From positions 96,001 to 160,000 of the IMG/VR virus record IMGVR_UViG_3300034782_000062: a stretch of DNA of 64,000 nucleotides. One strand, 5' to 3'. The position numbers were made by a program, and so were the translations under genes. This DNA is from a virus. Under the pieces are notes generated by a model. It saw only the letters and a program-made list of their open reading frames with translations. It was not told where the DNA came from and did no database searches. Of this stretch, positions 35,893-48,621 are shown in pieces (the first letter of the stretch is position 1; the number at the start of each line of letters is the position of its first letter).

Positions 35893-36117
35893 ATGGCAAC
35901 GAACGTTTCGATTTGGAGATCGGAGTACTCTGGAAAACAGTTTTCCTCAGAGGAAGAGGCTAACGCCCATGACGAACGAGTCCTCGATGTCATGGTCGCG
36001 TGGCTGAGAGAGAACATGGAAGCAGGCTGGCTGAACGAAGGTCAGCTCAGGGAAATCGCCGGCAGGTTCGCCGGCAAGATGACAGAGCTTCGAAAATTGA
36101 TGTCCAAGGTCGATTAG
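35893..36117 (+). CDS. Small protein after the fibre genes (possible chaperone)
   Basis: GGGGA RBS; F.SEEEA..H motif; function inferred from position only. Confidence 0.5.
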   Translation: MATNVSIWRSEYSGKQFSSEEEANAHDERVLDVMVAWLRENMEAGWLNEGQLREIAGRFAGKMTELRKLMSKVD

Positions 36118-37436
36118 GGTCGCACATCGTAGTTGTGCCCGGCCGGGGCTTCGCCGAGATGCGCTCCTCGAATGAATGGCGCTATCCACTTCAGCTTTCG
36201 CAAAGAACGTTTCGGGCCGTAGGGCTGGTTTCTCCAGTGCCCGCGGGTGATCGAAGGCCTTGTTAGCTTTCGTCCTGAGGACGATGGCCTTTCTCCGCTG
36301 GGGGCCGCTGGCGCCTCAGGGTTGATGACAATGTTCGTCCCCAGAAGCCAGTGAGGCACATGTTTCAGATCCCGTATCGTCTTGAGGATGCGGTTTCGTG
36401 CTATTGCTCCGCCCTTCTTCTTCTTACGAGCCCGCTTTTCGAGACCATCGATCTGGTCTTGGTGGATGTGACGCTTGTGGGCACCCGATGAGTTGATGTA
36501 GAGGATGGTGTTTGTTGCAATCCTCAGGATAGCGCGCTTGAATTCTCGGCCATATATCGTATCGCCAAAGATGGTGCCGTAGGCTGTGATTCTTGGATCG
36601 TCCTGTGGCGCCTTGCCATCTCGAACCCTTTTGGAACTTCGAGAAAATATTTCAGCGGCTTGATCTCGTGTCATGGGCATGTGGACGTTGAGTCTGCCGT
36701 CTTGGGCCATCTCCCGGCCGATGTCACTCGCGTGCTCGACAAAGTCAATGACCTCGTCGAGCGGCTGGTCAGGGTTGAACATTGGGAGCCAGACGTCCAT
36801 GACATGGTCGTCGCCGAGGTTGATGCTCTTCTCATTGGGCTCACAGAAAACGCCGACGAGAAGAGCATCTTTCCACATGGGCTCGGTGCCTTCAGCGATC
36901 GCCATGTAGCGCGCCTCGTGCAAACCTGTGACCTCATCGTTGCAGTAAACGGCCCCCTGGGGAAGCTCGATGAAGAACGCAGGAAAGGGCATTTTTATGT
37001 GCTCGACGAAGGTGTTCTTGAGGTCGGTGTTGTGGAGCCCCCAGAGCAGCCCCTCAGAAAGCGTGAACCACGAAGGGGTTGCTGACTGTTCGATGGTTTT
37101 GAGGTGCGTGTAGGATGTCACGCAGGTTGCTCGTGTGGAGTCGTGTTCATTCGCGGCTGGGATCGGTCTGAAGGGAAGGATGCTGAAGCCGTCATTCTCG
37201 AATTCGTCGAAGATGGCTTTGAAGGGCTCAAGGTATTGAAATTCGCTCCACCATCTTAGCTCTTCGAGGGGCATCCCGACGGTCAGGGCTTGATGAAGAG
37301 CGAGCTGCGCATCACATTGTTGCCTGAAGCACTCTTTGCCTTCGATCCGTCGCTGGTCGCCCTCGTTGTAGCGCCGTTGATGCTCCTCGATGAGCTTCAT
37401 CCGTAGCTTGTGCTGGTCTCCCGTGAGCCGTCGCAT
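36114..37436 (-). CDS. Hypothetical phage protein with basic C-terminal RGHWR motif
   Basis: 440-aa ORF; RGHWRNQPYGP..WIAPF tail. Confidence 0.65.
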   Translation of the reverse strand: MRRLTGDQHKLRMKLIEEHQRRYNEGDQRRIEGKECFRQQCDAQLALHQALTVGMPLEELRWWSEFQYLEPFKAIFDEFENDGFSILPFRPIPAANEHDSTRATCVTSYTHLKTIEQSATPSWFTLSEGLLWGLHNTDLKNTFVEHIKMPFPAFFIELPQGAVYCNDEVTGLHEARYMAIAEGTEPMWKDALLVGVFCEPNEKSINLGDDHVMDVWLPMFNPDQPLDEVIDFVEHASDIGREMAQDGRLNVHMPMTRDQAAEIFSRSSKRVRDGKAPQDDPRITAYGTIFGDTIYGREFKRAILRIATNTILYINSSGAHKRHIHQDQIDGLEKRARKKKKGGAIARNRILKTIRDLKHVPHWLLGTNIVINPEAPAAPSGERPSSSGRKLTRPSITRGHWRNQPYGPKRSLRKLKWIAPFIRGAHLGEAPAGHNYDVRP

Positions 37437-41650: not shown

Positions 41651-42124
41651 ATGTCCAAAAGAAAGAATTCAGTCGCGCTCCTTTCCGTTGGCACGACCAT
41701 TTTTAATGGCGAAGGGAACAGGTGGCTGTGCTTCGCGATTGAGGTGAGACCCTCTGGAAAGGATCTTGAAAACGCGCCGCGGATGCTTCGCGACATGGGC
41801 CGCGCCATCAAGACCTTCGAGCTGATAGCGGATCTTGAAGACGAGCACGTATTCGTGCCTGGCTCGAACCACTGCTTTGGGCCGTTCGTCTATCCGGATG
41901 GCAAGGACTTCTTCGGTTTCGTCGTCTTCCAGACGCAAGAAGAGCTGGGAGACAAGGTCCCGTCCAAGGTTCGGGCTGGACTCAACGGAGCAATTGGTGT
42001 CCTCAAGCAGAGTGAAGTCCGGTGCCGTCAGCGAATCAAGCCAATCGAGCAGCTCATGCTTCCAGGGATGGAGATGATCCCTACAATGAAGCCCGAATCG
42101 GAAGAATCGGAGAGCGAAGAATGA
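41651..42124 (+). CDS. Hypothetical protein
   Basis: GAGGAG RBS; operon context. Confidence 0.6.
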   Translation: MSKRKNSVALLSVGTTIFNGEGNRWLCFAIEVRPSGKDLENAPRMLRDMGRAIKTFELIADLEDEHVFVPGSNHCFGPFVYPDGKDFFGFVVFQTQEELGDKVPSKVRAGLNGAIGVLKQSEVRCRQRIKPIEQLMLPGMEMIPTMKPESEESESEE

Positions 42125-42288
42125 TGTACGAATACGAGTGCACGGACCAGAAGTGCGGGCACAGGTTCGATTGGATAGTGGATAGTGAAGACGAAAAGGT
42201 CTCCTGCGAGAAGTGTGGCGCAGAGGCCAAGCGCGTAAAGATCGCGCTGTCCAAGCACGCCAGGCGGCAAGACTGGCGTGTGACGTGA
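42121..42288 (+). CDS. FmdB-family zinc-ribbon protein
   Basis: MMYEYECTDQKCGHRF..CEKCG. Confidence 0.75.
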   Translation: MMYEYECTDQKCGHRFDWIVDSEDEKVSCEKCGAEAKRVKIALSKHARRQDWRVT

Positions 42289-42398
42289 CAACCAACGAGC
42301 TGCCAGGGCTCCGGGGGCCGAACCGAGCCCCGTGCTCGGGGTCTGATGAGCGGTTCGTTACAGCATAATCCGTCCTGGGGACGGATATCGGAGGCAAG

Positions 42399-42992
42399 AT
42401 GGCGAAGGCACGCGGATCACCATCCGCCATGCAGGTGGAGGAGTTCGAGGTGACCATCGAGGGGACGTCCCCTCTCGTGTTGTTACCTTTGGGCTTCTTC
42501 AAGGACTGTCCTGACGACGAAGACGGCCAGCTCGAACGCGCGCTCGACCTGTATCGTCGCGAGGATGGCAATCCTGGGTTCCCGGCTGGCGGGCTCAAGG
42601 ACGCGATTCTGGAGGGCTGCAAGAAGCTCGACGCGGACACTCGTTACCGAGTCGCATCCGGTTTTCACATCGTCGGGGAGAACGCCACAAATCGAGTCCT
42701 CCTCAACGGGGACTCGGAAGGAGTCGACTTCGACTTCAACTTCAAGAGACCGAAACGCACCGTAACCAGGACGCTCCCACAACTCGACAAGTGGACTTGT
42801 GTCTTTCCGGTGCAGCTCGTGACCGGGAGCCTGGACTCGAAAGAGTTCAATGAGTTCCTCGGGGTGGCCGGAGAGAAGATCGGCATCGGACATCGCCGAC
42901 CTGAGATGGGCACCTTCAAGGTCACAAACATCGTTTCCAAGAATGGAATCAACAACCGCTCAAAGCGCAAAAGCAACAACAACAAGAGGTAA
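42399..42992 (+). CDS. Cas7/RAMP-fold-like protein, short paralog
   Basis: IEGTSPL, GFPAGGLKDAI and G-rich loop AGEKIGIGHRRPEMGTFKV; GGAGG RBS. Confidence 0.7.
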   Translation: MAKARGSPSAMQVEEFEVTIEGTSPLVLLPLGFFKDCPDDEDGQLERALDLYRREDGNPGFPAGGLKDAILEGCKKLDADTRYRVASGFHIVGENATNRVLLNGDSEGVDFDFNFKRPKRTVTRTLPQLDKWTCVFPVQLVTGSLDSKEFNEFLGVAGEKIGIGHRRPEMGTFKVTNIVSKNGINNRSKRKSNNNKR

Positions 42993-42997
42993 TCGAG

Positions 42998-43738
42998 ATG
43001 CCCGCGAAGAAGAAGAAAGATGAAAAGATCAAGATTGAGCCGCTGGAGTTCGAGATCGCCGTCCTCCAGATCATCGGTACCCGGCCACTGATCGTTCACG
43101 CCTGGGACCCCAAGACCCAGGCCGAGATGTTGGCGAAGCAGATGAAGCTGCCTGTCGCCGGGGCCAAGCAGAAGGTTCGCAACCCAGACGCCGAGTACGA
43201 GGCAGCACTCTACCGCATCCCCGAGGACATGGGAGGCGGATACGGGGTGCCCGCGGCGGCGTTCAAGCAGAGCTTCGTTGACGCCTGCCGTCATGTCGAC
43301 ATCGCAATGACGATGGCCACCGGAGCCTTCCACGTTCGAGGTGTCGAGGTGGACATGCCTCCTGTCATCCTCAACGACAAGGAGGGCAACCAGATCGAGA
43401 CGGGCGACAAGTCGATGGAGATGATCCCCATCTACGGCTCGGAGCCTCGTCGCCGGATGGATATGGTTCGCCTCGAAGGTGGTAGTGCCGATATGCGGTT
43501 CAGGCCGCAGTTCGACAAGTGGTACTGCCTGGTGCCCGTCCAGATCGCCAAGGGTACGCTCACGGTTCAGCAGGTCACCGACCTGGCAAACCGCGCCGGC
43601 TTCCACTGCGGCATCTGCGAGTGGCGCCCATTCTCGAAGAAGTCGAAGAACGGCTCCTATGGGATGTTCAAGGTCGCGACGACCAAGGAGGAGCAGAAGC
43701 TCTTCAAGTCGCTGAAGCCACCAACGTTTATCCTCTGA
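42998..43738 (+). CDS. Cas7/RAMP-fold-like protein, full-length paralog (Vipr-like)
   Basis: IIGTRPLIVH, GVPAAAFKQSF, RFRPQFDKW and G-rich loop AGFHCGICEWRP..GSYGMFKV. Confidence 0.75.
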   Translation: MPAKKKKDEKIKIEPLEFEIAVLQIIGTRPLIVHAWDPKTQAEMLAKQMKLPVAGAKQKVRNPDAEYEAALYRIPEDMGGGYGVPAAAFKQSFVDACRHVDIAMTMATGAFHVRGVEVDMPPVILNDKEGNQIETGDKSMEMIPIYGSEPRRRMDMVRLEGGSADMRFRPQFDKWYCLVPVQIAKGTLTVQQVTDLANRAGFHCGICEWRPFSKKSKNGSYGMFKVATTKEEQKLFKSLKPPTFIL

Positions 43739-43770
43739 TCGAGGAAAACTGACGGGGAAGGGACGCTCTT

Positions 43771-44274
43771 ATGGCCAAAGGAAGAATCTTCAAGTGGAAA
43801 AAGGGCTCGACCTTCAAGGTTGATGCCCAGACGGCTGGGACGTTTCTCGAAAATCTGAAGGCGGAGAATGACGGAATTCTTCAGCCTGACGACGTCGTCG
43901 AGGCAGCGAAGGACCCAGAATCTCCGATTCATGACGAGTTCGAGTGGGACCTTCAGAAGGCCGCAAATAATCACTGGAAGGACCGGGCGCGCAATCTTAT
44001 GAATCACCTCGCGGTGGTTCGTGTGTACGCCGAAGATGCCAGTGAGGGCGTCTCAGCCTTCGTCAATGTCGAGGTCGCTCAGTCGACACGTGGTTACGTG
44101 GCGATGTCTCAGGTCGTCGCAAACGATGACTGGCGTCAGCAGATGGTCGATGACGTGCTCAATCGTCTGAAAGCTCTTCAGAAGAAGTATGAGCAGCTCG
44201 ACGAGCTGGATGGCGTTTGGGCCGCGATCAAAAAAGCTGAGACGCGTCGAGCGAAGGGCTCGGCAGCAGCCTGA
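43771..44274 (+). CDS. Accessory protein of the RAMP/array locus, function unknown
   Basis: LQPDDVVEAA..SPIHDEFEWD..AA..W..RAR motif; lies between the RAMP genes and the array. Confidence 0.7.
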   Translation: MAKGRIFKWKKGSTFKVDAQTAGTFLENLKAENDGILQPDDVVEAAKDPESPIHDEFEWDLQKAANNHWKDRARNLMNHLAVVRVYAEDASEGVSAFVNVEVAQSTRGYVAMSQVVANDDWRQQMVDDVLNRLKALQKKYEQLDELDGVWAAIKKAETRRAKGSAAA

Positions 44275-44321
44275 CCAGGCTGAAACGATGCTCTTTGACA
44301 ATCTGGTTTTCTGAAGCAAAA

Positions 44322-44590
44322 GGCAGCAAGCTCCTGCTTAGGCGGCGAGTGTCTTCCTGTTCTTAGGTGGGTCGGGTTTTGTCCCGCCAGCCGAGTTGGG
44401 CCACGGTTAGCCATGGACCGACTAGCTGGGTCGGGTCGCGTCTCGGCCGGCGGGTCTGTTAAGGATTTGTCTTGAAAGAGATGGTCTCGGCAGTCACGGA
44501 TAGGAATGGGACGGCCAGGGGGCGGAGCATTGGCAACGATGGCTCCGTCAAGCACCGAATAGGCAGTCACGTCGAGGCGAAAGACGTGAT
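44322..44590 (+). ncRNA. Proximal mini-array of pentamer-repeat units (~5 units)
   Basis: Delimiters GGCAG/GCCAG/GGCCG at 44322, 44386, 44445, 44489 and 44562; spacings 64, 59, 44, 73; G-led pentamers. Confidence 0.65.
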
Positions 44591-44607
44591 ACATTACATT
44601 TACTCTT

Positions 44608-44703
44608 GTAGGTGTCGGGTGCCAGTTTTTTTTTGGGCGGCATGGGGTCGTCCGATGTCATCAGTTGCTGATGAGGTAGTGGGCACTGGCACCCGCCACC
44701 TAC
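44608..44703. other. Long stem-loop separating the mini-array from the main array
   Basis: 19-bp IR with one mismatch (44608-44626/44685-44703), inner 7-bp hairpin 44658-44674, followed by TTTT. Confidence 0.7.
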
Positions 44704-44723
44704 TTTTCATTCATCTTGAGGAT

Positions 44724-47700
44724 GGCAGCCAAGCCATGTCGAGCACAGGCGGCGACGGCAACGTTCCGCACTGCGAAGGCATGGAGAGCACAGCCCTGGC
44801 AGTCATGCTAGGGAGCGCTTTGCTCAGCGTTGGCTTGCTAAGCACCGCCGTTGATCGCAACGTCGCGGCAGCCGAGTTCTGAAGTGTTGAGTGGTGCCGG
44901 GGAGGGGCGGTGCGTGTCTGCGCGCACCTTGCCTTTGTAAGCGGTGACCTGGCAGTCGTGTCGAGGCGAGAAGCGGCACGTTGGGTCTATCACAGCGTAG
45001 GCGAAGCCGGGCAGCCGTGTCGCGGATGTGTAGCCTAGGGGCGGCACGTCAGTGAGGGGATATCCCGGTCCAGGCAGCTTTGCGTTGCTGTGCATCGTCA
45101 GTCGGCGGAAGCCAACGCGATCCCACGGAACGGCAGCGATGGAGAGCAGGAGAGGGTCCACGCGGCGCAAACCGGGGTGGGCCAAGGTGCGATTGGAATG
45201 GCAGTCGAGGCGAATATCGACTACAGCCATCGCGGCTCGCCTCTACTGGTTGTGGCAAACAATGTTTTGCGACGGCCATGGTGGGGCAGCCTAGGTGAGC
45301 AGAGTGCTGGTGAGCATGGGCCAGTCGCGCTTGAGAACGTCTTGTCGCGGCAGCCGGTCAACGGTATGGGTAGGAGTGTCATTCACTGTCGCTCCCGTCA
45401 ATGCCGAGTCGAGGCAGTCGGGTCATGTTGGAGTCGGGATAGCCGGTCATAGCGGGCGCCTGCCCCGTCAGAGCAGCCGCGGAAATCATAGGATCGCACG
45501 GGGTCGGAATTTAGTGGTTCGGCAGCCGTGTCAGGGTCCGCTCTGCTTGGGATCCGAGCGCCAAGCTCAGGCGCAGATGGCCGAGGCAGCCATGTCGAGT
45601 TGGTTATGGTTGTGCAGGTCACGCTGAGTCGTGCAGCACCGAGGCAGTCGGTCAGTGCCCCGTCGATGCCGGTTACGCGATGCGTAGGTGGTGATGGGAC
45701 TGCCGAGGCAGCCGAGGACAGGACGGTCCCGCCCTGGACAGTCATAGCCAGGGGTGCTTTGTCAAGACGAGGCAGCCGAGGATGCATGGGTGCGCTGGGT
45801 CAGGTTTCGCCATTCAGGTGAGTGCGCTGTCGTGGCGTTATTACGGCAGCAGTGCCCTGTCGGGATCCGTCACACCGGGGAACTCAGGGGTAACCAGAGG
45901 TTTGCTCTGGCAGTCGGGCAATGTCAGCGTCTGCTCAGCAGCCGCTTGTCCTGCTGATGAGAGCCCAGCCCTGGCAGTCGGGCCTAGCACGGGACCGTTG
46001 AGCAATTCCATGGAGCGTCGTTGCAGGCGTTGCGGGGAGTGGTCGTCCGGTCACTCAACGCGATGGAACGCTAAGGTGTGCTGAGGCAGCGGTGCCTGGG
46101 AGCGTTGAGTCCAGCCATTATGGGCTTGGCCGAGGCAGCGGTGTTGAGGCGAGCTTGGCAGTGGCCCGTCCGGTCGAATAGATCCTTGTCGATCAGCGGC
46201 AGCCCTGCTGGGGAGTGGCCAGTCGCGTTCTGAACGCTATTGCTCGCAAAGCGTGGGTGAGGCAGCGGTGCCTCGTCGAGGTCAGCAACGCAATGGAAGG
46301 CAAAGGCCGAGAATGGACAGGATCGGCAGCGAGGTCGTGGCGATATACGGTCTGGCAGCAGTGTCTAGGTCGGTCGGGCTAGCTCAGTCATGGCCAACAA
46401 GGTCATGGTCGGGAGAGTCGAGGCCGGCATGTTTAGTCCGGCCCTTTGAGGCACAGGATTGGAAAGGTGAGGCAGTCGAGTCGAGTCGTTGTGGGGCCTT
46501 CAGGGGCAAACAACGGTGTGGCAGTCACGCGATGGTAGGTTCAGTCGCGTCCTGCTCAGCAATTCCTAGGAGAGCCTGGGGATGCAATGGCAGCTTTGCC
46601 AAGGGTGGGTGAGCACAGGCCTTCAGCGAAAAGTCGTTTCGCGTCGCGGCAGCCTGGTTGAGTTGAGGTCTCGCATGACGGTCCTTGGACCGCCGAGTCC
46701 CGACGCGGCAGCTATGCCCTGTCGTGTCATTCCCAGTCATTCAATGCAGAGGATTGGAAAGGGTGGCCGAGGCAGCAAAGCACCGGACGGGAGAGCCGTG
46801 TGACGTAAGGGGGAGCACCGCAGGTCAGAGCTAAGGTCCGGTTTGGCGAAATAAACCGACTAAGGCAGCTTTGCCGGTGTAGGCGATGGTTGTTTTTGGT
46901 GAGCTTGGTTGATCAGAGTAAGGGCAGCCGAGCAGAGGAACGTCATCGGATGCCTGGTCGTCCTAAGGACGGACGAGTCTAGGCAGCACCGCAGAGCGGG
47001 GGACAGCGATGCGGCTCAGAGCATAGCAAGGGCTAGTCGCGGCAGCCTTGCTCTGTCCAGCTCGGGCGAGTCAACTCTGCGAGAGGACCGCTCGGGCCGG
47101 GATAGCGCCGGCAGCCGGGTCACGGCCTGGATCTCCAAGCAATGGATTCGCAGTGTGGGTCCGGTTATGGCAGCAACGCACAGCGAAGGCAGGCATTGGA
47201 ATACCATGTCAGTCTTAGGTCCGCCACGATCAGGCAGTAAAGCTGGGGATTGAAGCGTCGCGGAGAATTGTGTTGCGCAATTGCGAGGCGAAAAAGCATT
47301 TGCGTTACGGCAGCGGTGCATAGGCTTGTTCAGCAAGCGCGTGCCAAGCCCGCGGGCGTCGTGGCAGCCGGGCACTGAAACGTCCAGGATCGGAGCAGCC
47401 TGCTTCCGCAGGTGGTGCCGAACCCGGTTGGGTCCTGGCAGCCGGGGATGGTTGTTCTGGGGCCAGGAGCCCCTGGTTATTCAGAACAGGGGTTTGGCAG
47501 CCGGCGTGAGCTGGGGCCAGGAGCCCCTGGTCGTCGCGAACGTTGGCCCGAAGAGGCAGCAGGGCTGAGGATGGGGGAGCTGAGGCCAGACGCCGCATGT
47601 CTTGATCTGCATAGTCACGTCCTGGCGATATCAGATGTGACTTTGCTTTGCCGAATGGGGGAGCGTGTTGGTTTGGCAGCCCTGCGTTGGGTAGGACCGG

Positions 47701-48365
47701 TTAGTCCGGGACTTCCACGTCGGGCCGCTCATTGGACTGGCCGTCGAGTTGGGCCGGGGCACAATGGACCGCAGAGTTACGTCTCGTCCCGCCAAGGCAG
47801 CCGCGGTTCGTCACCGAACTCCATGCGACAGTTTGGGAGTCCGGGGACGGCAACGGATCGGCAGCCATGTCGCCGAGGGGCTTGCGATGCAGGGCACTGC
47901 AGGGGCATTCAGGTGCGCACCCTGGCAGCGATGCTGCGGAGGGGTGGGTCATTGAATGCTGGGCACTGCCGCCGCGCTGCGGGCCGTATCCTGGATAGGC
48001 AGGCGCCCCCCGGACTGGGGAGCCTTGACCTCCAATGGCGCTCTCAGGAGAGAAACGCCGTGGCAGCCGTGCTGATCCAAGGAGCGGAGCGCTTCGGAGA
48101 GGTGGGTCCGTCATGTCCATGGATTCGCTTAGGGAAGGACCGGCAGCAGCGTCTTGGTGACGAGTGGATTGTTCTGCTCGGCCCAAGCAAACATTGTCGC
48201 GGCAGCCATGTCCAGGTCCGTCACGTTTCGTCTTGCTTCTCAAAGCAATGGGGAGAGCGGGCGGGTCGGCGCCAGGCAGCAGCGGGTTGGGGTGCACAGC
48301 CGCGCCGCTGAGGGGAGTACCTCGGAGATCTACGGATAGGCAGTCACGACCTGGCGATATAGGAG
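44724..48365 (+). ncRNA. Main non-coding pentamer-repeat array (~56 units), putative guide-RNA array
   Basis: GGCAG recurs about every 49-84 nt; 43 of 55 intervals equal 5n+4; units parse as GGCA followed by G-led pentamers; no credible ORF. Confidence 0.85.
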
Positions 48366-48399
48366 TGGCTTGAAAACATCTTGAGGATGGAGGGTTTTT

Positions 48400-48621
48400 G
48401 TGGGTAGAGGAACAACGAAAAAGGCTCTCAAACAGATCGAGAGCTTCAACAAGAAAAATCCGGTCGGAACGCCGGTGCGCTACTGGCCTGGTGTCAAGCA
48501 GGGCGCCGGTGTCGAGTCCAAGACGAGGTCCGAGGCATGGGACCTCTGCGGTAGCCCGTCGGTCATGGTCGAGGGCTACAGCGGTGGCATCGCTTTGACG
48601 CATGTCGAAGTTATGCAGTAA
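48400..48621 (+). CDS. Small phage protein
   Basis: PVGTPVRYWP..TRSEAW..VMVEGYSGGIAL; GGAGG RBS; GTG start. Confidence 0.6.
   Translation: MGRGTTKKALKQIESFNKKNPVGTPVRYWPGVKQGAGVESKTRSEAWDLCGSPSVMVEGYSGGIALTHVEVMQ

What the first reader, a model, noticed from the sequence alone, without database searches (positions are those of the whole stretch)
42399..43738. Two unequal RAMP paralogs suggest a heteromeric filament
The 197-aa copy lacks the PLIVH-linked insertion and has RTLPQLDKW where the 246-aa copy has RFRPQFDKW. Its G-loop is GIGHRRP versus GICEWRP, and it ends in a basic tail. The longer copy has a basic N-terminus. Inference: the short paralog may be a cap or terminal subunit that reads the 4-nt GGCA delimiter, in the way Cas5 caps Cascade, or it may broaden tolerance of the degenerate scaffold.
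Basis: inference. Interest (0 to 1): 0.7.

Follow-up and report, generated by a model that had tools for sequence, protein, structure and literature searches.

The report
Phage VIPR system with two Viprs
The two adjacent genes are diverged copies of Vipr, the guide-RNA-binding protein of the phage VIPR DNA-silencing system described in 2026; the shorter copy has replaced every residue that normally reads the repeat's two guanines, so it is probably a specialised extra subunit, a form the VIPR papers I could search do not describe.

Summary
ORFs 42399-42992 (197 aa) and 42998-43738 (246 aa) are true paralogs, and all the quoted motifs are present.

**What they are.** Both are Vipr proteins, the Cas7-like RAMPs of VIPR systems. 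They lie in a 183-kb phage, upstream of a vap gene and a 4-kb "staggered" guide-RNA array.

**Long copy.** It keeps all four residues that read the repeat's GG in the solved SUSP1 Vipr.

**Short copy.**
- It has replaced all four GG-reading residues, and three of the four replacements never vary in its family.
- It is under purifying selection (dN/dS about 0.2-0.3).
- It is predicted to dock on the long copy (score 0.68, best control 0.00).

**Distribution.** The pair occurs in every locus of one small clade. The 80 nearest single-Vipr phage loci have the same vap and the same GGCA delimiter.

The delimiter is not what the short copy was added to read. Three things do track the pair: a changed base after the delimiter (G to C/T), a relaxed repeat (GGYNN to GNNNN) and arrays about ten times larger.

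**Best reading (about 0.45).** The short copy is a specialised boundary or register-setting subunit, one per guide.

The three VIPR preprints and a fourth preprint that covers VIPR arrays do not describe this form in their searchable text. This scan has noted two-Vipr loci before on other DNA; I did not check those notes.

The parts
42399..42992 (+). Short Vipr paralog (197 aa): RAMP fold, with the GG-reading residues replaced (L29, L126, H165, R166)
   Evidence: Profile A1 hits PDB 36pp_D, SUSP1 Vipr, at E 3.6e-8. The model has pLDDT 81.8 and its top Foldseek hits are Csm3/Cas7 at E 5e-6. dN/dS is 0.15-0.44.
42998..43738 (+). Long Vipr paralog (246 aa): canonical guide-RNA filament subunit that keeps H34, R169, E208 and W209
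   Evidence: Profile A2 hits SUSP1 Vipr over its full length at E 4.9e-11. The model has pLDDT 87.6 and its top hits are Cas7-family proteins. dN/dS is 0.05-0.40.
43771..44274 (+). vap (Vipr-accessory protein, 167 aa, phrog_15946); the same family follows vipr in the single-Vipr relatives
   Evidence: a vap HMM hits the ORF right after vipr in 74 of the 80 single-Vipr loci and in every two-paralog locus long enough to reach it.
44322..48344 (+). Staggered vrRNA array: about 58 units of GGCA + n x (G-N-N-N-N), with lengths mostly 5n+4
42121..42288 (+). Small Zn-ribbon (PF09723) gene that precedes the pair in every related locus whose gene calls reach upstream of it; its role is unknown

Best explanation
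Shown: the locus is a phage VIPR system, an RNA-guided, CRISPR-related DNA silencer. It is of the same kind as its single-Vipr relatives, with the same vap and the same GGCA-delimited staggered guide array, plus one extra upstream Vipr gene. Inferred: the long protein is the ordinary filament subunit, one protomer per 5-nt repeat, and it keeps the four residues that hold G1 and G2 in the solved SUSP1 complex. Shown: the short protein is an old, fast-diverged and then conserved Vipr copy in which all four of those residues are replaced, and which lacks the basic segment after strand 1. Inferred: the short copy docks with its helix-1 face on the thumb/G-loop face of a long protomer and sits once per guide at the unit boundary. 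That boundary is where these arrays carry a motif of their own (GGCAG followed by C/T-C-G instead of G-G-C-A-A). Inferred: a fixed boundary subunit that sets the register would let the remaining repeats lose the GGY scaffold and let arrays grow. This is the same division of labour as Cas5 (handle) and Cas7 (backbone) in Cascade.
For: Identity:
- Both profiles hit SUSP1 Vipr.
- Both models have a Cas7/Csm3 fold.
- vap and a 5-nt-periodic array lie downstream.
- The record is a 182,770-nt virus.

Residue swap:
- In SUSP1, H17 and D177 read G1, and R138 and W178 read G2. D177A or R138A abolishes silencing (bioRxiv 10.64898/2026.04.26.720927).
- The long copy has H34, E208, R169 and W209.
- The short copy has L29 (L or I across the family), H165, L126 and R166 (D or G in one subclade). 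H165 and L126 are invariant in 16 homologues.

Conservation:
- The order short-long-vap-array holds in every related locus with enough DNA: 11 distinct loci with DNA and one more known only from its gene calls.
- dN/dS of the closest pair is 0.21.

Contact:
- Complex score 0.68 against a best control of 0.00. That mark was reached by 58 of 80 solved complexes and 2 of 110 mismatched pairs.
- The runs agree in at least 81% of contacts, and the partner's pLDDT is at least 83.
- All three runs give the same single orientation.

RNA correlates:
- The base after GGCAG is G in 263 of 292 cases in single-Vipr arrays. In two-paralog arrays it is G in 8 of 250 and C/T in 232 of 250.
- G at repeat position 2 is 0.03 in the first repeat and about 0.4 in the later repeats. 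It is 0.66-0.96 in single-Vipr arrays.
- Units are otherwise homogeneous, with no excess variance between units and no alternation. The boundary is therefore the only special site in a unit.
- The long copy's G-reading residues are the same as in the single-Vipr relatives. The relaxed scaffold therefore tracks the extra paralog and is not explained by a change in those residues.
Against: - No RNA or protein data exist for this clade, and no RNA run holds the locus.
- The two proteins are paralogs of a filament former. The predicted contact may only echo the homotypic filament interface, and only one complex job was allowed, so neither the reverse orientation nor the homomers were tested.
- Single-Vipr relatives manage the same GGCA delimiter without a second Vipr.
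- The long copy of this clade also carries a clade-specific insertion of about 25-30 aa (residues 113-146). That insertion could be the real cause of the relaxed scaffold.
- All two-paralog loci descend from one event, so the correlations count as n = 1.
- By my reading of the published protomer polarity, the predicted orientation puts the short copy 3' of a long protomer. The clade-specific RNA motif lies 3' of GGCA, at the 5' start of the next unit. The end at which the short copy sits is therefore unresolved.
Confidence: 0.45

Rival explanations
1. The short copy is a pre-vrRNA processing endoribonuclease, in the manner of Cas6 or Cas5d. It would cut the long array transcript at each boundary and perhaps stay bound as a cap.
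For: The arrays have neither ribozymes nor 3' tail structures between units. With up to about 60 units, they need many precise cuts. The short family has invariant His, Tyr and Lys residues (Y52, H90, K116, H165), the residue kinds used by metal-independent RAMP nucleases (my own knowledge). The changed motif sits at the boundary.
Against: Single-Vipr relatives with the same delimiter and no second RAMP must be processed some other way. Boundaries have no stem-loop of the kind Cas6 enzymes usually grip. No catalytic geometry was tested.
Confidence: 0.15
2. The two paralogs form separate homomeric filaments, each on its own set of guide RNAs, as two systems that share one operon.
For: The short copy keeps a complete RAMP core with thumb and G-loop, both conserved. 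Different RNA-reading residues could mean a different repeat code. The published VIPR complexes are homo-oligomers.
Against: Units in nine arrays show no second class. The variance between units of G at position 1, G at position 2 and Y at position 3 is no greater than binomial expectation. No second kind of periodic array was seen in the locus. The short copy lacks the basic segment after strand 1 that the long copy and SUSP1 Vipr have. A heterotypic contact is predicted.
Confidence: 0.15
3. The short copy is an interspersed filament subunit that fills repeats the long copy cannot read (those lacking G). This would give a mixed filament whose subunit order is written in the RNA.
For: About 20-25% of repeats lack G at position 1 and about 60% lack G at position 2. 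The short copy lacks the G readers. Non-G repeats are slightly less often adjacent than chance would give (lag-1 r = -0.10).
Against: There is no positional or alternating pattern. The single-orientation prediction gives no sign that a long protomer can follow a short one, although the reverse arrangement was not tested. The short copy's faster evolution fits an accessory better than a bulk DNA-reading subunit.
Confidence: 0.12
4. The short copy is a regulator or weapon and not a part of the effector. For example, it could be a capping decoy that poisons rival phages' Vipr filaments or limits the phage's own.
For: VIPR systems target each other in inter-phage conflict. A Vipr that binds a Vipr face but cannot read GG has the properties expected of a dominant-negative cap.
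Against: It is strictly syntenic and closely spaced with its own long partner across the clade. It coincides with expanded arrays, not reduced ones.
Confidence: 0.05

Closest known systems
VIPR systems with staggered vrRNA arrays (bioRxiv 10.64898/2026.04.26.720920; structures in 10.64898/2026.04.26.720927)
   Same: Phage-encoded, with a Vipr RAMP protein followed by vap and then a 5-nt-periodic guide array. Neighbouring units are offset by one base (a 4-nt GGCA step), which matches the published 'staggered arrays with overlapping vrRNAs'. Relaxed repeats (NNNNG) are also mentioned there.
   Different: [quoted passage not shown] The dataset has 670 Viprs in 667 systems, and the solved complexes are homo-oligomers. 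Here a second, RNA-contact-altered Vipr is a fixed part of the operon (a third is present in one relative), and the arrays hold about 20-70 units against a median of about 3.5 delimiters in the single-Vipr relatives.
Nearest single-Vipr phage loci in IMG/VR (L001-L080; 33-41% identical to the long copy)
   Same: Same vap family, same GGCA delimiter, and the same G-reading residues as the long copy.
   Different: They have one Vipr only. Their repeats are canonical GGY-NN (G at position 2 about 0.75, Y at position 3 about 0.95), the base after the delimiter is G, and their arrays span 591 nt or less.
Cas5/Cas7 division of labour in type I Cascade (and Csm3/Csm4/Csm5 in type III)
   Same: Paralogous RAMPs in one operon: a backbone subunit present in many copies, and a diverged copy with altered RNA contacts proposed to sit at a fixed guide end.
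   Different: No Cas1/Cas2, large subunit or nuclease is present. The guide is not a repeat-spacer unit. The short copy is closer in sequence to Vipr than to any Cas5. Its position and copy number are not shown.

Membership tests
Vipr (VIPR RAMP protein) | Sequence homology to an experimentally characterised Vipr | tested here: met
   Against PDB 36pp_D, 'SUSP1 Vipr protein': the long-family profile scores E 4.9e-11 over the full length and the short-family profile E 3.6e-8 over the C-terminal half.
Vipr (VIPR RAMP protein) | RRM/RAMP fold with a glycine-rich loop and a thumb hairpin | tested here: met
   The models have pLDDT 81.8 and 87.6. Their top Foldseek PDB hits are Csm3/Cas7-family chains, with probability 1.0 and E 5e-6 (short) and 9e-5 (long).
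Vipr (VIPR RAMP protein) | Encoded next to a vap gene and a tandem 5-nt-repeat vrRNA region, mostly in viruses | tested here: met
Vipr (VIPR RAMP protein) | Residues that read G1/G2 of the repeat (SUSP1 H17, D177, R138, W178) | tested here: met
   The long copy has H34, E208, R169 and W209. This row refers to the long copy only.
Vipr, canonical repeat-reading subunit (short copy) | Residues that read G1/G2 of the repeat | tested here: not met
   The short copy has L29, H165, L126 and R166 at these four positions. H165 and L126 are invariant in its family, L29 is L or I, and R166 is D or G in one subclade. It is a Vipr by descent and fold but not a canonical GG reader.
Vipr (VIPR RAMP protein) | Binds vrRNA and oligomerises along it | not testable with these tools
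   No RNA-protein modelling or RNA data were available. Only a protein-protein prediction was made.
Cas5-like terminal (cap) subunit | One copy per complex, bound to a fixed handle at one end of the guide | not testable with these tools
   Only indirect hints exist: a single special motif per unit and a one-orientation docking prediction.
Cas6/Cas5d-like processing endoribonuclease | Catalytic His/Tyr/Lys site that cuts the repeat transcript | not tested
   Invariant Y52, H90, K116 and H165 exist, but their geometry and activity were not examined.

The most novel reading that the evidence does not exclude
Inside a phage VIPR system, the ancestral single RAMP has already duplicated and split. 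One copy became a sequence-specific boundary or handle subunit, and the other a backbone that tolerates nearly any sequence between single G marks. That is the step the VIPR discovery paper proposes on the way from VIPR to Cascade-type CRISPR effectors. A further diverged third copy in one relative would show the process continuing.
Probability: 0.3. Interest if true: 0.8.

Novelty: new variant of a known kind. Interest (0 to 1): 0.62.

Why it matters
VIPR was described only in 2026, as a one-protein, homo-oligomeric RNA-guided DNA binder and a proposed ancestor of CRISPR effectors. A conserved two-Vipr form in which one copy has given up reading the repeat would be the first heteromeric VIPR.

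- It offers a natural test of how register is set on a guide with a non-contiguous code.
- It may explain how the GGY scaffold can be relaxed, which would free more guide positions.
- It gives a living example of RAMP duplication and specialisation, the step proposed to lead to Cas5/Cas7.

The pair goes with the largest arrays in this sample, about 60 guides.

Tried and rejected
- **Family searches:** Pfam gave nothing for either protein. Rfam at gathering threshold gave nothing in the window, and no tRNA was found.
- **Short-paralog relatives:** none in IMG/VR viral contigs, in the GTDB species genomes or in 50,697 GenBank phage records. There were only 6 metagenome loci. In 1.84 billion representatives, only 4 scored E <= 1e-30, followed by a gap to 1e-16.
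- **Strict alternation of the two subunits:** no period-10 signal by repeat index, and lag-1 r = -0.005 for G at position 2.
- **Two classes of guide units:** no excess variance between units.
- **Protein-RNA covariation:** the GIGHDRP subclade (L091, L099) tends to GGCAG-C-A, whereas the GHRRP loci tend to GGCAG-C/T-C. This rests on only two related loci, so I do not use it.
- **Origin of the short copy:** the quick tree places it on a very long stem among single-Vipr lineages without resolving a sister group. The careful search did not finish.
- **Possible hammerhead:** the CTGATGAG string at 42345-42352 looked like a hammerhead core, but there is no GAAA partner and no Rfam hit.
- **Expression:** no RNA holder was listed.
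- **Laying DNA contigs of four wetland runs:** this showed only that the same sequence occurs there in short, low-depth pieces.
- **Supplementary tables of the discovery paper:** not held, so the VIPR type (I-VII) of this clade could not be looked up.

Full report
**1. The observation**

Shine-Dalgarno-like GGAGG and AGAGG motifs lie before each start.

They are real paralogs. BLASTP gives 26% identity with E 2e-14. The profiles of the two families match at 99.4% probability, E 1e-21.

The basic C-terminal tail is peculiar to this phage and its nearest relatives and is missing from most homologues. The basic N-terminus of the long copy is conserved.

**2. What the genes are**

Pfam is blank for both proteins, and both hit one PHROG of unknown function, phrog_4652.

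A note from an earlier agent of this scan about the neighbouring array named VIPR systems. I checked this against the papers themselves. They describe:
- a single small RAMP protein (Vipr) plus an accessory protein (vap);
- guide RNAs made of 5-nt repeats (GGY/NN, with relaxed variants down to NNNNG);
- one protomer per repeat in a homo-oligomeric filament;
- several array styles, including 'staggered arrays with overlapping vrRNAs'.

My own tests agree:
- The long-family profile (32 sequences) hits the solved 'SUSP1 Vipr protein' (PDB 36pp_D) over its full length at E 4.9e-11.
- The short-family profile (16 sequences) hits the same chain at E 3.6e-8.
- Both AlphaFold models are confident (pLDDT 81.8 and 87.6), and their best PDB matches are Csm3/Cas7 backbone subunits.
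- The next gene, 43771-44274, belongs to the vap family that follows vipr in related loci.
- Downstream, 44322-48344 holds about 58 units of GGCA + n x (G-N-N-N-N), with lengths mostly 5n+4. This is the published staggered layout, in which the 4-nt step offsets neighbouring units by one base.
- The window is part of a 182,770-nt virus record judged 95% complete, and these are its only two Vipr genes.

**3. How the two copies differ**

The cryo-EM paper names the contacts that hold the repeat. H17 and D177 read G1, and R138 and W178 read G2. D177A or R138A abolishes silencing. R179 helps hold Y3.

| SUSP1 residue | Role | Long copy | Short copy |
|---|---|---|---|
| H17 | reads G1 | H34 | L29 |
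| D177 | reads G1 | E208 | H165 |
| R138 | reads G2 | R169 | L126 |
| W178 | reads G2 | W209 | R166 |
| R179 | helps hold Y3 | R210 | R167 |

This mapping was made motif by motif.

The long copy's residues are the same as in the single-Vipr relatives. In the short family H165 and L126 never vary. L29 is L or I. R166 is D or G in one subclade.

The short copy also lacks the basic segment that follows strand 1 in SUSP1 Vipr and in the long copy. It has an acidic stretch there instead.

The short copy is therefore a Vipr by descent and fold, but it cannot read the repeat in the published way.

**4. Is the short copy alive and part of the system?**

- Every related locus with enough DNA has the same order: Zn-ribbon gene, short copy (called genes 174-204 aa), long copy (245-252 aa), vap (165-186 aa), then a multi-kb array. 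The loci are the window, L081-L084, L087-L092, L095-L097, L099 and L100 (11 distinct loci with DNA once duplicate copies are merged), plus one contig known only from its gene calls.
- Pairwise dN/dS is 0.15-0.44 for the short copy (0.21 for the closest pair) and 0.05-0.40 for the long copy (0.07 for the closest pair). The short copy is under purifying selection but changes about twice as fast.
- A search of 1.84 billion representative proteins finds only four clusters of the short family at E <= 1e-30, then a gap to 1e-16 where ordinary Viprs begin.
- On a quick tree the short family is one clade (support 100) on a very long stem of 4.2 changes per site. Its sister group is unresolved.

**5. 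Do the two proteins touch?**

The complex prediction supports binding, with a score of 0.68 against a best control of 0.00. That mark was reached by 58 of 80 solved complexes and 2 of 110 mismatched pairs. The runs agree in at least 81% of contacts, and the partner's pLDDT is at least 83.

In all three runs the long copy's thumb (153-166) and G-loop/C-terminal region (190-228) meet the short copy's helix-1 face (63-71) and its family-specific PLG.F and GFHxxGE..TN motifs.

Because these are paralogs of a filament former, a pass may only reflect likeness to the homotypic interface. It shows compatibility, not binding. I could not test the reverse orientation or the homomers.

**6.

IMG/VR holds 541 relatives of the long copy. 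In the best 80 (33-41% identical) there is only one Vipr ORF within 8 kb on either side. Of these, 74 have the same vap family right after it. These loci are a well-matched comparison group.

| Feature | Single-Vipr loci | Two-paralog loci |
|---|---|---|
| Delimiter | GGCA | GGCA |
| Base after GGCAG | G in 263 of 292 | G in 8 of 250; C/T in 232 of 250 |
| First repeat after the delimiter | GGCAA | G-C/T-C-G-N (G at position 2 only 0.03) |
| G at repeat position 2 | median 0.75 | 0.28-0.49 |
| Y at repeat position 3 | median 0.95 | 0.50-0.75 |
| Array size | median 3.5 delimiters, at most 16, span 591 nt or less | up to about 60-70 delimiters, about 4 kb |

The delimiter itself is therefore not tied to the second paralog.

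Within two-paralog arrays the units are homogeneous, and nothing alternates from repeat to repeat. The boundary is the one special site in each unit.

There are two caveats. All two-paralog loci are one clade, so this is a single evolutionary event. The long copy of that clade also has its own insertion of about 25-30 aa, which is an equally good correlate.

**7. Reading**

Taken together, the most economical model is a heteromeric VIPR. The long copy forms the repeat-by-repeat backbone. The short copy sits once per guide at the unit boundary, on the face offered by a long protomer. It fixes the register, so the other repeats no longer need the full GGY mark. I give this model about 0.45.

The rivals are:
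- a processing nuclease that may stay bound (0.15);
- separate homomeric filaments (0.15);
- an interspersed subunit (0.12);
- a regulator or decoy (0.05).

Which end the short copy occupies is open. My reading of the published polarity puts it 3' of a long protomer, while the clade-specific RNA motif lies just 3' of GGCA, at the start of the next unit.

**8. Novelty**

I searched the text of the three VIPR preprints, and of a fourth that mines VIPR arrays, for words about paralogs or heteromers. Nothing turned up.

The discovery paper counts 670 Viprs in 667 systems. It says loci typically have only vipr and vap, and that the system needs a single small protein. Figures and supplementary tables were not available to me, so a drawn but undiscussed example cannot be excluded.

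This scan has noted two-Vipr VIPR loci before on other DNA (e1-1192850 and e1-988355, both with a DinG-like helicase, one with about 40 guides). I could not check them. If they hold, double Viprs with large arrays arose more than once.

I rate this a new variant of a known kind.

Noticed in passing
L081:6003-6674: One relative carries a third Vipr paralog (223 aa) between the long copy and vap. It branches with the long clade on a long branch, and the two positions that read G1 are changed (H to P, D/E to V). L088 is 99.6% identical upstream but has only about 50 nt at that place, so the third copy is a recent gain or loss.
   Followed up: partly
P0058 (336 aa): A protein that looks like two Vipr domains fused head to tail in one chain, each with its own strand-1 motif and G-loop (GIGDHRP and GIGDLRP).
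   Followed up: no
L099:9839-14200 and L091:9371-13100: In the subclade whose short copy has the G-loop GIGHDRP, many array units are 5n+3 long. They show an extra one-base frame slip a few repeats after the delimiter, which suggests a second internal 4-nt step.
   Followed up: partly
L088:8828-9366: The vap gene of this relative is split into two overlapping ORFs. This is either a frameshift or an assembly error.
   Followed up: no
window 42121-42288: A small Zn-ribbon gene (PF09723, FmdB-like) precedes the Vipr pair in every related locus whose gene calls reach upstream of it. It may belong to the operon.
   Followed up: no
L087:1789-3036 and L088:1382-2005: Related phages carry a gene that hits PF26125 (AcrVA2-like) about 5 kb upstream on the opposite strand, next to the integrase/DnaJ block. 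The equivalent place in the window (about 36114-37436, - strand) was not checked.
   Followed up: no
window 42345-42384: Just upstream of the short gene there is a CTGATGAG string and a 15-nt hairpin, CCGTCCTGGGGACGG. There is no Rfam hammerhead hit.
   Followed up: partly
window 42300-48500: Short contigs identical to this stretch occur in several wetland metagenome runs from different studies, so the phage seems widespread in that habitat.
   Followed up: partly
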